This document shows positions 17,343 through 19,415 of a stretch of 64,000 nucleotides of DNA, one piece after another. Position numbers and translations under genes: made by a program. Under the pieces are notes generated by a model that saw only the letters and a list, made by a program, of their open reading frames with translations, was not told where the DNA came from and did no database searches. Source of the stretch: an uncultured Acidobacteriota bacterium (GTDB lineage Bacteria; Acidobacteriota; UBA6911); contig CAYTYP010000003.1 of NCBI GenBank assembly GCA_964441405.1, positions 42,283-106,282 of the forward strand. Direction: 5' to 3'. The number at the start of each line of letters is the position of its first letter. Position 1 is the first letter of the stretch.

Positions 17343-19415
17343 TTGAAAAGAGCCCCCGTAATCTTCTTGGCTTTATTTTTGGTTTTGCTTTTCCCCGTTA
17401 AAGAGACGTTCTGCCAATCCGCCGAGAATTGCTTGCTTTGTCACGGCAATCGCTCATTTGCCAAGTCGATGTTTGTAGATACTGGTCGCCTAAAAAATTC
17501 GGTTCATGCGAAAATGAACTGTACCGGTTGCCATAGCGGATCGGGTTTCAAAGAAACGCCGCACAAAAAGGGCGACAAACCAGTTCAATGTCTCCAATGC
17601 CACCCTATCGAAGGTTTTGAGAAAAGTGTTCATTCCATGACCGGATGTAAGAGTTGTCACGGAACTCATGAAATCCGATCTTTACAGGATCCTAAATCTT
17701 CCATTAATAGAGTCAATATTGCAGGCTTATGCGCCCAATGTCACGCTGGAATAAGCCGGAAGTTTCTGGCTTCGGCTCACGGATCGGCTCTCTCCCAAGG
17801 AGAAAAAAATGCTCCTTCATGCATTGATTGTCACGGCTCTCATAAAATAGATCCGGTGCAGAGTAAAGATTCTCCTCTGTCAAAAAGCAATGAAGCGAAA
17901 TTGTGCCTGAAATGTCATTCAAACGATCCGGAGGTGCGAAAGCAGAGGGGCTCGTCGGCGAGACTTGTTGTCGGCTACGAGACAGGCGTTCATGGCCTGG
18001 CGCTTGCGGCCGGCAATCTAAAATCCGCTGCTTGCAGCGACTGTCATACCTCGCATGATTTAAAAAAGGCGGGAGACCCGTCTTCTCATGTAAGTCGATG
18101 GAATATCGCCGAGACATGTTCCCAATGCCATTCTAAAATTGTAAAAACCTATAATGAGAGCATTCACGGATCGGCTCTGAAGATGGGGAAATCGGATGCG
18201 CCGACATGCACGACCTGTCATGGCGAGCATCAGATCTATGCTGCGAAAGATTCCCGCTCCAGAGTCTCGCCGGGAAATGTGTCCGTGCAGGTCTGCGCCG
18301 GTTGTCATAACTCGGTTCCGTTCAACCGGAAATATGGAATGTCTTCGGGGCGATTCAATTCTTTTCTGGAAAGCTATCATGGACTTGCGTTCCGAGCTGG
18401 ATCGGTCGAGGTGGCCAACTGCGCCAGTTGTCATGGGGTGCACAATATTCGGCCTTCCCGGGACCCTGCCTCAACAGTCAACGTCGCCAATATTGCCGCA
18501 ACTTGCGGACGCTGTCATCCGGGCGCCAACAGAAATTTCGCGATAGGAAACGTACATGTTGTTGTAGGGGAGAGTGGCTCCGGCGGCGTCGCGCTTGCCT
18601 GGATCCGAAACATATATATTACCCTGATTATTGTCATTGTCGGCGGCATGTTCCTGCACAATTTTTTAGACTTCTTGAAGAAAAGCAAGCGACGCATACA
18701 GATTCGGAATGGGCTTATTCATGAAAACTATGGATCCACTCAGTATGTTCGCATGACGCTCAACGAGCGAATCCAGCATGCTGTGACGTTCATCAGCTTC
18801 ATTCTTCTGGCGGTTACGGGCTTTATCCTGAGATATCCCGATGCCTGGTGGGTTGCTCCGATTCGAAGCTTGAGTGATAGCTTGTTTGAAATACGTGGCT
18901 TGGTGCACCGAGCCGCCGCTATTGTATTGATCGGGGTAAGTTTTTATCATCTGGTTTATCTTTCTTTCACCCGAAAAGGAAAAAGCTTTTTGAAAGATAT
19001 CCTGCCGGGGTGGAAAGACGCAGTGGATATTTGGAAGAATCTGCTTTATATCACAGGAATATCCAAAAGCAGACCGCTCTTCGATCGGTTCGGTTATATC
19101 GAGAAGATGGAATATTGGGCGCTGGTCTGGGGAGTTTTGATAATGAGCGTAACGGGCATCGTAATGTGGTTCGAAAATTATTTTATCGGACTCTTTACGA
19201 AGCTGGGATGGGATATCGCTCGCACCATTCATTTTTATGAGGCCTGCCTGGCTGCGCTGGCTATCGTGGTATGGCATTTCTATTACGTTATGTTCAGCCC
19301 AAGCGTTTATCCGATGAACACTGCCTGGGTAACAGGAAGAATCTCAGAAGAAGAGATGGCGGAAGAACATCCTTTGGAACTCTCCCGCAGACTGGCGTCT
19401 AAAGTCGATAATTAG
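17343..19415 (+). CDS. Multiheme c-type cytochrome (13 CxxCH) fused to a C-terminal 4-TM b-type cytochrome domain (CbcL / FdnI-HydC-like)
   Basis: TTG start 5 nt after a GGGAGGAG RBS; signal peptide; 13 CxxCH motifs counted; C-terminal ~240 aa with four hydrophobic helices bearing conserved His pairs. Confidence 0.8.
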   Translation: MKRAPVIFLALFLVLLFPVKETFCQSAENCLLCHGNRSFAKSMFVDTGRLKNSVHAKMNCTGCHSGSGFKETPHKKGDKPVQCLQCHPIEGFEKSVHSMTGCKSCHGTHEIRSLQDPKSSINRVNIAGLCAQCHAGISRKFLASAHGSALSQGEKNAPSCIDCHGSHKIDPVQSKDSPLSKSNEAKLCLKCHSNDPEVRKQRGSSARLVVGYETGVHGLALAAGNLKSAACSDCHTSHDLKKAGDPSSHVSRWNIAETCSQCHSKIVKTYNESIHGSALKMGKSDAPTCTTCHGEHQIYAAKDSRSRVSPGNVSVQVCAGCHNSVPFNRKYGMSSGRFNSFLESYHGLAFRAGSVEVANCASCHGVHNIRPSRDPASTVNVANIAATCGRCHPGANRNFAIGNVHVVVGESGSGGVALAWIRNIYITLIIVIVGGMFLHNFLDFLKKSKRRIQIRNGLIHENYGSTQYVRMTLNERIQHAVTFISFILLAVTGFILRYPDAWWVAPIRSLSDSLFEIRGLVHRAAAIVLIGVSFYHLVYLSFTRKGKSFLKDILPGWKDAVDIWKNLLYITGISKSRPLFDRFGYIEKMEYWALVWGVLIMSVTGIVMWFENYFIGLFTKLGWDIARTIHFYEACLAALAIVVWHFYYVMFSPSVYPMNTAWVTGRISEEEMAEEHPLELSRRLASKVDN

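What the first reader, a model, noticed from the sequence alone, without database searches (positions are those of the whole stretch)
17343..19415. 13-heme cytochrome c fused to a membrane diheme-b-type domain
A single 690-aa polypeptide carries a signal peptide, thirteen CxxCH motifs and a C-terminal four-helix membrane domain with His pairs typical of FdnI/HydC-type b cytochromes. Such c/b fusions (Geobacter CbcL-like) act as quinol:periplasmic electron-carrier oxidoreductases in extracellular electron transfer and metal or sulfur respiration. The gene is isolated with its own TTG start and a strong RBS, and is flanked by a PilZ gene and an AT-rich region.
Basis: partly seen in the sequence, partly recalled or inferred. 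Interest (0 to 1): 0.5.

Follow-up and report, generated by a model that had tools for sequence, protein, structure and literature searches.

The report
CbcL-like 13-heme membrane cytochrome
One stand-alone gene encodes a membrane protein that joins a periplasmic chain of 13 c-type hemes to a two-heme b-type membrane anchor; it is a genuine relative of Geobacter's CbcL that most likely moves electrons between the membrane quinone pool and partners outside the cytoplasm, and it is a real but fairly ordinary member of a large, known family.

Summary

Homology to 9-heme Geobacter-type CbcL proteins is decisive (HHalign probability 100%, E=4e-77). Compared with CbcL, this protein has one extra 129-residue four-heme repeat unit and lacks CbcL's sixth, C-terminal helix. 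The family is large: 1,028 clusters at E<=1e-30.

In distant relatives the gene sits beside ImcH-like and other multiheme cytochrome genes. Here and in its closest relatives (probably Acidobacteriota) it is an orphan, so the physiological acceptor and the direction of electron flow are unknown.

Verdict: a new member of a known kind, with modest interest.

The parts
17182..17209 (+). Sigma-70-like promoter candidate (TTGCAA, 16 nt spacer, GATAAT) in the 186-bp AT-rich intergenic region shared with the divergent PilZ gene
   Evidence: Consensus scan only, 9 of 12 matches; sequence read. Weak evidence: 9 such sites were found in the scanned region against 5.8 expected.
17332..17336 (+). Shine-Dalgarno sequence GGAGG, 6 nt upstream of the TTG start
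   Evidence: Read directly from the sequence.
17343..19415 (+). Coding sequence of the 690-aa c/b fusion cytochrome (TTG start, TAG stop)
   Evidence: Logan gene call P0121 is the identical 690-aa product. 5,551 homologues were found among 8,000 scored candidates, and 1,028 50%-identity clusters at E<=1e-30.
17343..17414 (+). Predicted Sec signal peptide (residues 1-24; likely cleavage before Q25)
   Evidence: Hydropathy peak at residues 1-26 with K2 and R3. Homologues share the pattern signal peptide, then Q-S/T-x-x-C-L-x-C-H. The cleavage site is inferred, not predicted by a dedicated tool.
17415..18557 (+). Periplasmic 13-haem c-type domain (residues 25-405, about 29 residues per haem), with 13 CxxCH and 13 further conserved His (H55, 74, 97, 109, 146, 167, 217, 238, 275, 296, 346, 367, 405) as candidate distal ligands
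17634..18020 (+). Four-haem repeat unit A (residues 98-226; haems 4-7)
   Evidence: Local alignment of A against B scores 250, z=35.9 against shuffles. Haem spacing i to i+4 is 129-130 residues.
18021..18407 (+). Four-haem repeat unit B (residues 227-355; haems 8-11). One full unit (A or B; they cannot be told apart) is the extra unit relative to 9-haem CbcL
   Evidence: GSU0274 haem positions 34, 57, 82, 105, 129, 158, 186, 229, 257 (PMC6295460 Table S2) are collinear with our first nine.
18408..18578 (+). Partial repeat unit C (residues 356-412; haems 12-13) ending in invariant H405 just before the membrane
   Evidence: B against C gives z=12.8. H405 is invariant in our family and in CbcL-type proteins.
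18579..18677 (+). Linker transmembrane helix TM1 (residues 413-445, periplasm to cytoplasm), carrying invariant H439 (18657-18659) at its cytoplasmic end
   Evidence: H439 is invariant in all 33 sequences of the joint alignment and has no FdnI counterpart.
18747..19373 (+). FdnI/HydC-type dihaem cytochrome b domain (residues 469-677; helices 473-497, 512-542, 585-613, 620-651). Inferred ligands: haem bC H479 (18777-18779) plus H645 (19275-19277); haem bP H522 (18906-18908) plus H630 (19230-19232). Loop G584-K588, with invariant E587/K588 (19101-19106), aligns to the FdnI HQNO-site loop N110-K114
   Evidence: Pfam PF01292 at residues 471-652; TIGR01583 at residues 469-677, below its cutoff; FdnI profile alignment; fold matches; positive-inside rule, 7 and 9 K+R in cytoplasmic loops against 1 and 0 in periplasmic loops.
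18948..18950 (+). H536 codon: an extra invariant His in the cytoplasmic half of TM3, 14 residues after H522. Role unexplained
   Evidence: Invariant in the 13-haem family and the 19-haem relatives, but M/L/Y at that column in 9-haem CbcL-type proteins.

Best explanation
The gene encodes an inner-membrane bc-type cytochrome of the CbcL/MtrH/MtoC superfamily. It is a self-contained module that links the membrane quinone pool to redox partners in the periplasm.

Shown by sequence and structure comparison: after export, residues 25-405 carry 13 c-type haems, all probably bis-His. They are arranged as three N-terminal haems plus two and a half copies of a 129-residue four-haem unit. One linker helix returns the chain to the cytoplasm. 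An FdnI-type four-helix bundle then offers the same four His ligands that hold haems bP and bC in E. coli formate dehydrogenase-N.

Inferred by analogy with FdnI and CbcL: quinol is oxidised (or quinone reduced) at a site next to haem bC on the cytoplasmic face. Electrons cross the membrane from bC to bP, enter the c-haem wire, and leave to soluble or outer-membrane cytochromes or to soluble acceptors. In the quinol-oxidising direction the protons are released into the cytoplasm, so this step conserves no energy, as argued for CbcL. In the reverse direction it would be a charge-separating half-loop as in Fdn-N.

The physiological acceptor or donor in this probable Acidobacteriota genome is not identified. 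Extracellular or periplasmic electron disposal is the leading guess, because distant relatives of the gene sit in ImcH, DmsE-type and multihaem gene clusters.
Against: There are no experimental data for this subgroup. The gene is an orphan here and in all six close relatives examined, with no cytochrome, porin or periplasmic carrier gene nearby. The window carries SOD, a frameshifted catalase and complex I genes, which hint weakly at an oxygen-exposed organism rather than a dedicated metal reducer. Identity to CbcL is only 27-30%, and two CbcL features differ: 13 rather than 9 haems, and no sixth helix. The quinone-site position and the direction of flow rest on analogy only. The model is of moderate confidence (pLDDT 75.8) and was built without haems. 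The invariant H439 and H536 are not explained by the dihaem scheme.
Confidence: 0.8

Rival explanations
1. Same protein, opposite direction. It works as a quinone reductase that takes electrons from periplasmic or extracellular donors (Fe(II), reduced humics, a periplasmic dehydrogenase) into the quinone pool, like the MtoC members of the family. With an FdnI-type cytochoplasmic quinone site this would generate proton-motive force.
For: FdnI itself works in this direction, and the four ligands and the loop aligned to the FdnI quinone site are conserved. The literature places CbcL/MtrH/MtoC homologues in both Fe(III) reducers and Fe(II) oxidisers, with no sequence feature that separates the two (PMC6295460). 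Complex I genes, an Fe/Mn superoxide dismutase and a frameshifted catalase gene lie in the window, and an organism with aerobic terminal oxidases could use such electrons.
Against: No donor-side gene (MtoA/B-type conduit or periplasmic enzyme) is nearby. In distant relatives the neighbour is ImcH-like, a family so far linked only to quinol oxidation (PMC6295460). Bis-His multihaem domains of this type are typically low-potential; the CbcL c-domain is at -194 mV (PMC9129911).
Confidence: 0.25
2. It is the dedicated membrane anchor and electron-entry module of a specific periplasmic respiratory enzyme encoded elsewhere in the genome, playing the part that FdnI, NrfH or CymA play for their enzymes, rather than part of an extracellular electron-transfer chain.
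For: Membership of the FdnI/HyaC fold family, whose members are normally enzyme anchors. The c-domain also gives weak NrfB, NrfH and DmsE-type matches. The orphan position of the gene says nothing about its partner.
Against: Thirteen haems is far more than a docking module needs. No enzyme partner co-occurs in any of the neighbourhoods examined. Where neighbours are conserved they are other multihaem cytochromes.
Confidence: 0.12
3. The ORF is a decaying or mis-called gene and makes no functional product.
For: NCBI's own call is a shorter 592-aa product. At least one other gene in the window, the catalase, is split by a frameshift. No convincing terminator or regulator site was found.
Against: The reading frame is uninterrupted for 690 codons with a strong RBS. 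Every haem motif, every distal His and all the b-haem ligands are intact and invariant across 37 homologues at 47-73% identity. The same 690-aa product was called independently from a second data set.
Confidence: 0.02

Closest known systems
CbcL (GSU0274) of Geobacter sulfurreducens and its Desulfuromonadia orthologues
   Same: The architecture is the same: signal peptide, periplasmic bis-His multihaem c domain, linker helix, FdnI/HydC-type dihaem b bundle. Homology covers the full length (HHalign 100%, E=4.2e-77). The first nine haem positions are collinear within 4 residues. H405, H439, H479, H522, H630, H645, E587 and K588 are shared and invariant.
   Different: Identity is only 27-30%. There are 13 haems instead of 9, through one extra 129-residue four-haem unit. 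The sixth, C-terminal helix is absent (0 of 86 against 16 of 16), so the C-terminus is predicted to be cytoplasmic. There are extra invariant residues H536 and Y647. The host is probably Acidobacteriota, not Desulfuromonadia.
MtrH / MtoC (Rhodoferax, Dechloromonas, Gallionella) and the wider CbcL/MtrH/MtoC survey set of Zhong and Shi 2018
   Same: The same superfamily definition (multihaem c plus HydC/FdnI-like b). Variable haem number is a known property of the family (3-23) (PMC6295460).
   Different: Those genes lie in mtrAB/mtoAB clusters, whereas ours is an orphan. None of the 138 surveyed proteins has 13 haems. All full-length entries but one (OQX95005.1, 906 aa) have a helix at the extreme C-terminus. 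No MtrH or MtoC sequence was available here for a direct comparison.
FdnI, gamma subunit of E. coli formate dehydrogenase-N (PDB 1KQF/1KQG chain C); also HyaC (4GD3) and CybB (5OC0)
   Same: The same four-helix dihaem fold and the same four His ligands. The loop aligned to the FdnI HQNO site is conserved.
   Different: FdnI is a separate 217-aa subunit that receives electrons from FdnGH (Mo and FeS centres). Here the electron partner is a covalently fused 13-haem domain and an extra linker helix precedes the bundle. The NCBIfam FdnI equivalog model scores far below its cutoff (49.5 against 115.85 bits).
MtrA/DmsE-type decahaem periplasmic wires
   Different: It is not a soluble or porin-inserted protein. 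The score is well below the DmsE family cutoff (48.5 against 192.2 bits). The repeat unit is different (four haems in 129 residues).
ImcH (GSU3259)
   Same: Functionally analogous: an inner-membrane multihaem quinol oxidase of extracellular electron transfer. ImcH-like genes lie directly next to members of our family in many Acidobacteriota and Ignavibacteriota genomes.
   Different: The membrane module is unrelated (NapC/NirT-type, no b haems), and no ImcH-like gene lies in this window.

Membership tests
CbcL/MtrH/MtoC superfamily (multihaem c fused to HydC/FdnI-type cytochrome b) | N-terminal export signal followed by a periplasmic domain with multiple CxxCH motifs | tested here: met
   Hydrophobic N-terminus and 13 CxxCH motifs, all invariant in 37 homologues.
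CbcL/MtrH/MtoC superfamily (multihaem c fused to HydC/FdnI-type cytochrome b) | C-terminal HydC/FdnI-like dihaem b domain with conserved His ligands | tested here: met
CbcL/MtrH/MtoC superfamily (multihaem c fused to HydC/FdnI-type cytochrome b) | Significant sequence similarity to CbcL over both domains (the survey used BLAST E<0.01) | tested here: met
   BLASTP E=1e-52 to 1e-64 against 9-haem CbcL-type ORFs recovered from metagenomes. HHalign probability 100%, E=4.2e-77. These ORFs match published CbcL in length, haem positions and helix positions. The GSU0274 sequence itself was not available.
CbcL sensu stricto (GSU0274 orthologues) | Nine c-type haems | tested here: not met
   13 motifs, with one additional four-haem repeat unit.
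CbcL sensu stricto (GSU0274 orthologues) | Six transmembrane helices in the C-terminal half, including one at the extreme C-terminus | tested here: not met
   Five helices. A C-terminal hydrophobic segment is present in 0 of 86 family members but in 16 of 16 CbcL-type proteins.
CbcL sensu stricto (GSU0274 orthologues) | All c haems are bis-His, low-spin and low-potential | tested here: inconclusive
   13 conserved non-motif His and no conserved periplasmic Met fit bis-His ligation. Spin state and potential cannot be computed here.
CbcL sensu stricto (GSU0274 orthologues) | Required for reduction of acceptors below about -0.1 V; donates electrons to PpcA-type periplasmic cytochromes | not testable with these tools
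   This needs genetics and biochemistry. No PpcA-like gene lies in the window.
Ni_hydr_CYTB / FdnI family (PF01292) | Four-helix bundle with one His on helix 1, one on helix 2 and two on helix 4, with the N- and C-termini in the cytoplasm | tested here: met
   H479, H522, and H630 plus H645. The fold matches. The positive-inside rule holds.
Ni_hydr_CYTB / FdnI family (PF01292) | Acts as the anchor of a separately encoded formate dehydrogenase or hydrogenase (FdnI or HyaC equivalog) | tested here: not met
   TIGR01583 scores 49.5 against 115.85 and TIGR02125 scores 24.1 against 121.5, both below cutoff. No FdnGH or hydrogenase genes lie in the window.
   No NrfD-type Pfam or NCBIfam hit. The membrane domain is FdnI-type.

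The most novel reading that the evidence does not exclude
This 13-haem, five-helix subgroup may be more than a longer CbcL. The linker-helix His H439 (invariant in every CbcL-type protein examined), together with the subgroup-specific H536 and Y647, could form a third membrane cofactor site or a quinone site unlike that of FdnI. The extra four-haem unit, in a stand-alone gene of a probably oxygen-exposed Acidobacteriota, could serve as a self-sufficient electron outlet or inlet to soluble or humic acceptors, needing no dedicated periplasmic carrier.
Probability: 0.12. Interest if true: 0.55.

Novelty: new member of a known kind. Interest (0 to 1): 0.3.

Why it matters
[quoted passage not shown] This gene shows that uncultured Acidobacteriota carry an uncharacterised sister subgroup: 13 haems, no sixth helix, and often adjacent to ImcH-like genes in other phyla. 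That subgroup is abundant in metagenomes but is annotated only as "formate dehydrogenase cytochrome b subunit". Recognising it would improve genome-based predictions of iron and humic redox cycling in soils. It also shows how these haem wires lengthen in steps of four haems. For this single gene, however, nothing departs from the known working principle of the family.

Tried and rejected
(1) I tried to obtain the true GSU0274 sequence. The supplementary alignment of PMC9129911 is badly garbled by OCR. A search with its fragments returned only CbcL fragments of about 200 aa. The problem was solved indirectly through a metagenome scan with a real fragment.

(2) My first reading, four extra N-terminal haems, was rejected. 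The haem spacing and the internal repeat analysis show one extra internal 129-residue unit instead.

(3) The idea that conservation is concentrated on the cytoplasmic face was not supported: 40 of 183 against 18 of 95 invariant residues.

(4) An intrinsic terminator after the stop codon: the AT-rich hairpin folds at -6 kcal/mol, z=-0.43, no better than shuffles, and the consensus scan found none there.

(5) A sigma-54 promoter, prompted by HisKA plus sigma-54 activator neighbours in three relatives, and an FNR/Crp box: both at chance level, with nothing convincing in the upstream region.

(6) I mapped the CbcL gain-of-function residues V205 and F525 onto our protein. V205 falls near our G336, in a variable, low-confidence region. 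F525 maps to A640 or V642, depending on the offset. There is no lead here.

(7) A third b haem through H439 and H536 could not be tested, because no model coordinates are exposed. H536 is not conserved in 9-haem CbcL-type proteins.

(8) The PDB entry 28pb_A ("Cytochrome c", E=1.8e-8 to residues 27-166) could not be identified in the literature.

(9) The AFDB fold library was unavailable.

(10) Cluster look-ups gave no organism names. Taxonomy rests on NuoL relatives.
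Full report

Yes. The mechanical ORF list gives 17343..19415 (+), 690 aa, TTG start. The nearest in-frame upstream stop is at 17325, so the frame cannot begin earlier. GGAGG lies at 17332-17336, six bases before the TTG.

The product has 13 CxxCH motifs, at residues 30, 60, 83, 102, 130, 160, 188, 231, 259, 289, 318, 360 and 388. Of its 28 Cys, 26 are in these motifs. For a 690-aa protein of ordinary composition about 0.0015 such motifs would be expected. No other ORF of 80 aa or more, in any frame of the 64 kb window, has even one.

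The N-terminus (MKRAPVIFLALFLVLLFPVKETFC/QS) has the form of a Sec signal. The homologues keep the same layout, a signal peptide followed by Q-S/T-x-x-C-L-x-C-H. This supports the TTG start against the shorter NCBI product P0001, which has 592 aa and by its length would begin at M99. An independent gene call from another data set gives the same 690-aa protein (P0121).

A PilZ gene lies at 16851-17156 on the minus strand. The intergenic regions are AT-rich, at 37.1% and 30.7% GC, against 48.2% for the gene.

There is one correction. The membrane part has five helices, not four. Hydropathy and the AlphaFold model (helices 413-455, 473-497, 512-542, 585-613, 620-651; mean pLDDT 75.8) agree on this. 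The first helix is a linker. It is needed to bring the chain from the periplasmic haem domain to the cytoplasmic start of the four-helix bundle.

**2. What is the membrane domain?**

- Pfam Ni_hydr_CYTB (PF01292) matches residues 471-652 at 48.7 bits, above its cutoff of 30.1.
- The NCBIfam equivalog models for FdnI and for the hydrogenase cytochrome b are hit but stay far below their cutoffs. That is expected for a relative that is not an orthologue.
- A profile of the C-terminal domain from 17 family members finds one solved protein, E. coli FdnI (1kqf_C), at E=4e-6 over residues 4-214 of 217.
- In that alignment FdnI H18, H57, H155 and H169 fall on H479, H522, H630 and H645. From my knowledge of the Fdn-N structure, H57 and H155 are the ligands of haem bP, and H18 and H169 are the ligands of haem bC. 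All four of our His are invariant in 37 homologues.
- The FdnI loop N110-A-G112-Q113-K114, which I recall as lining the HQNO/menaquinone site next to haem bC, aligns with G584-Y-I-E587-K588. E587 and K588 are invariant.
- The model's fold agrees. Foldseek finds FdnI as the only significant PDB match (E=7.3e-5, target-normalised TM 0.82).
- Loop charges fit the required topology: 7 and 9 Lys+Arg in the two cytoplasmic loops, against 1 and 0 in the periplasmic loops.

**3. What is the haem domain?**

Besides the 13 motifs there are 13 further conserved His: H55, 74, 97, 109, 146, 217, 238, 275, 296, 346, 367 and 405 are invariant, and H167 is at least 90% conserved. No periplasmic Met is conserved. 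This is the pattern expected for 13 bis-His haems, at about 29 residues per haem. The purified CbcL domain has 28 residues per haem and nine bis-His haems (PMC9129911).

**4. Is it CbcL-like?**

The GSU0274 sequence was not directly available. The supplementary alignment of PMC9129911 is garbled by OCR. Its fragments led to real Geobacteraceae and Desulfuromonas CbcL fragments (P0130 is named "cytochrome C, partial [Geobacteraceae bacterium]"). BLASTP of our protein against P0130 gives E=3e-18.

A metagenome scan with one real fragment yielded twelve full-length ORFs of 612-656 aa with nine CxxCH each. Their haem and helix positions match those tabulated for GSU0274 (619 aa; haems at 34, 57, 82, 105, 129, 158, 186, 229, 257; helices 285-307, 351-373, 399-421, 477-496, 511-533, 589-611; PMC6295460 Table S2).

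Against these ORFs our protein gives BLASTP E=1e-52 to 1e-64 at 27-30% identity over about 570-590 residues. Profile-profile comparison gives probability 100%, E=4.2e-77 over 434 columns. Those columns cover the last five haems, the linker helix, the whole b domain and the cytoplasmic tail. H405, H439, H479, H522, H630, H645, R523, E587, K588, G597, E633, A634, P653 and P657 are invariant across our family, the 9-haem CbcL-type proteins and their 19-haem relatives. The homology claim is therefore met.

**5. How does it differ from CbcL?**

- Haem number. Our first nine haem positions are collinear with GSU0274 to within four residues. The extra four haems correspond to one additional copy of the 129-residue unit. 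My earlier reading of an N-terminal extension was wrong.
- C-terminal helix. CbcL-type proteins end in a strongly hydrophobic helix, present in 16 of 16. None of the 86 members of our wider family has one. Our C-terminus should therefore be cytoplasmic.
- Extra conserved residues. H536, 14 residues after H522 on the same helix, and Y647 are invariant in our family. At those columns the 9-haem CbcL-type proteins have M/L/Y and F respectively.
- Survey coverage. The 2018 survey of 138 CbcL/MtrH/MtoC homologues lists proteins with 3 to 23 haems but none with 13. Every full-length entry but one (OQX95005.1, 906 aa) has a helix at the extreme C-terminus. This subgroup was apparently not sampled there.
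- H439. This residue, at the cytoplasmic end of the linker helix, is invariant in all groups and has no FdnI counterpart. Its role is unexplained.

**6. How common is it, and who has it?**

The word-indexed search found 5,551 homologues among 8,000 scored candidates. The best 120 have 46-74% identity and carry the same c-type and PF01292 domains. They are mostly annotated as "cytochrome b subunit of formate dehydrogenase". The exhaustive search of 1.84 billion cluster representatives found 5,617 at E<=0.001, 3,306 at E<=1e-10 and 1,028 at E<=1e-30.

Among species-representative genomes, at least 365 loci encode relatives. The 80 best (39-49% identity) are from Bacteroidota/Ignavibacteriota, Opitutaceae/Verrucomicrobiae, Terriglobia and other Acidobacteriota, Holophagales, Thermoanaerobaculia, NC10, Calditrichota and Rhodothermales.

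Within the 90 sequences used for a rough tree, 71 have 13 motifs, 10 have 11, one has 12, and eight have 17-19.

The window itself is probably from an uncultured Acidobacteriota. All four organism-named relatives of its NuoL (71-77% identity) are Acidobacteriota MAGs. One NuoL relative lies on the same 6.9 Mb contig as cytochrome homologue P0048. One cytochrome homologue at 58% identity is also named Acidobacteriota.

**7. Genomic context**

In the window the gene is monocistronic and isolated. The local order is an EF-G paralogue, PilZ (divergent), the cytochrome, a small OMP beta-barrel gene, a sulfatase-family membrane protein, and MacB/HlyD-type transporter genes. The closest relative, P0002 (74% identity), shares this gene order.

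More distant members of the same clade (P0017, P0023, P0027, P0048, P0083; 54-59% identity) have different neighbours and no cytochrome genes. Three of them lie next to a histidine kinase and sigma-54 activator pair. I found no sigma-54 or FNR-type site upstream of our gene. I found only a weak sigma-70-like match and no significant terminator.

The 39-49% relatives look different. In 61 of 80 of their loci, other ORFs with two or more haem motifs lie nearby. A recurrent immediate neighbour is a protein of 482-502 aa with N-terminal helices, one CxxxCH, five or six CxxCH, and a NapC/NirT/NrfH-like region. This is the published description of ImcH (PMC4251993; PMC6295460). Locus L073 also carries a DmsE/MtrA-family decahaem above its curated cutoff (243.8 against 192.2 bits) and a 949-aa ORF with no Pfam match.

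In a rough neighbour-joining tree, our protein falls in a clade where every member of known context is an orphan. That clade is sister to the Ignavibacteriota/Bacteroidota/Verrucomicrobiota clade, where clustering is common. The family as a whole is thus linked by gene neighbourhood to electron-transfer chains built from multihaem cytochromes. Our particular clade has lost, or never had, that linkage.

**8. Mechanism**

Shown by comparison:
- an exported 13-haem c domain;
- a linker helix;
- an FdnI-type bundle with all four haem ligands.

Inferred:
- Two b haems form a transmembrane relay, with bC near the cytoplasm (H479/H645) and bP near the periplasm (H522/H630).
- The quinone site lies on the cytoplasmic side near bC, as in FdnI.
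- Electrons pass from quinol to bC, to bP, to the c-haem wire, and then to a periplasmic or outer partner.
- Because the protons of quinol oxidation would be released into the cytoplasm, this route conserves no energy. This is the argument made for CbcL, which supports lower growth yields and serves low-potential acceptors (bioRxiv 10.1101/2022.08.31.506072).
- The reverse direction (quinone reduction by periplasmic donors) is equally compatible with the structure and would conserve energy. The family occurs in both Fe(III) reducers and Fe(II) oxidisers (PMC6295460).

The window offers little to decide between the two directions. It holds complex I genes, ATP synthase genes, an Fe/Mn superoxide dismutase and a frameshifted catalase. 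These are weak hints of an oxygen-exposed organism rather than a specialised metal reducer.

The expected mature size is about 73.5 kDa plus about 8 kDa of covalently bound haem.

**9. Verdict**

The protein is a genuine relative of CbcL, in a large and uncharacterised sister subgroup (13 haems, five helices). It works, as far as sequence can tell, on the same principle. It is a new member of a known kind, and its interest is modest.

The open points are:
- the role of the invariant H439 and of H536/Y647;
- the physiological partner and the direction of electron flow;
- whether lengthening the wire by a four-haem unit has a functional meaning.

Noticed in passing
window 46403-48555 (+): The catalase gene is split across two overlapping reading frames. 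ORF 46403-46984 covers Pfam Catalase profile positions 1-99. ORF 46876-48555 covers positions 102-381 plus the Catalase-rel and Catalase_C domains. This implies a frameshift near 46876-46984, either an assembly error or a pseudogene.
   Followed up: partly
window 17343-17636 (+): The public NCBI product for this gene (P0001, 592 aa) is N-terminally truncated. By its length it would start at M99, omitting the signal peptide and haems 1-3. The Logan gene call (P0121) has the full 690 aa.
   Followed up: yes
L046 6391-10043; L054 6374-10046; L014 7848-11657; L065 7944-11677; L073 6420-10061: In many Acidobacteriota and Ignavibacteriota genomes an ImcH-like gene (N-terminal helices, one CxxxCH plus 5-6 CxxCH, NapC/NirT-like region) lies immediately next to the 13-haem c/b gene on the same strand. 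This pairs the homologues of Geobacter's two alternative quinol oxidases. I found no mention of this adjacency in the papers read.
   Followed up: partly
L073 1255-5872: Upstream of the imcH-like and 13-haem pair lie a Crp-family regulator, a DmsE/MtrA-family decahaem (243.8 bits, cutoff 192.2) and a 949-aa ORF with no Pfam match. That ORF could be the outer-membrane porin partner of a porin-cytochrome conduit.
   Followed up: partly
L024 5481-7646 (-), L029 1080-3176 (-), L031 5429-7657 (-): Opitutaceae and Verrucomicrobiae genomes carry a second, divergently oriented 11-haem ORF of about 700-740 aa right next to the 13-haem one. The L024 copy was tested and also has a Ni_hydr_CYTB domain, so it is a second c/b fusion. 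Similar 11-haem Opitutus and Verrucomicrobia proteins, with a C-terminal helix, are listed in the 2018 survey.
   Followed up: partly
L138, L141, L142, L162 (metagenome loci): Proteins of 930-1031 aa with 19 haems have CbcL-type membrane domains, including the sixth helix. They retain all 13 of our haem motifs in the alignment, as well as H536. This suggests that wire length in this superfamily changes by whole repeat units.
   Followed up: partly
L001 8151-10873; L164 3149-7499; P0023 locus: Three orphan relatives of our gene lie next to a histidine kinase plus sigma-54-dependent response regulator. In two of them there is also an ECF sigma factor and an unannotated gene of 211-286 aa. No such genes or sigma-54 promoter are near our gene.
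   Followed up: partly
window 14690-16780 (+): An EF-G paralogue (696 aa) lies upstream. Its domain IV matches Pfam only weakly (E=0.0034, below cutoff), so it may be a divergent EF-G2-type or ribosome-protection-type GTPase.
   Followed up: no
window 25001-27172 (+), 37368-38306 (-), 42340-43191 (+), 40891-41367 (+): Four sizeable ORFs (723, 312, 283 and 158 aa in the ORF list) have no Pfam match at the thresholds used.
   Followed up: no
window 55638-63993: A respiratory and housekeeping block: tRNA-Ser(CGA) at 55638-55729 (-), ATP synthase subunits I and a (55921-57221, +), GreA (57691-58161, -), and complex I subunits N, M, L (58187-63177, -) and J (63490-63993, -). NuoL is 71-77% identical to named Acidobacteriota MAG proteins.
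   Followed up: partly
window 43649-44221 (-): An alpha/beta-hydrolase ORF matches only profile positions 70-243 of Abhydrolase_1. It may be N-terminally truncated or have a mis-placed start.
   Followed up: no
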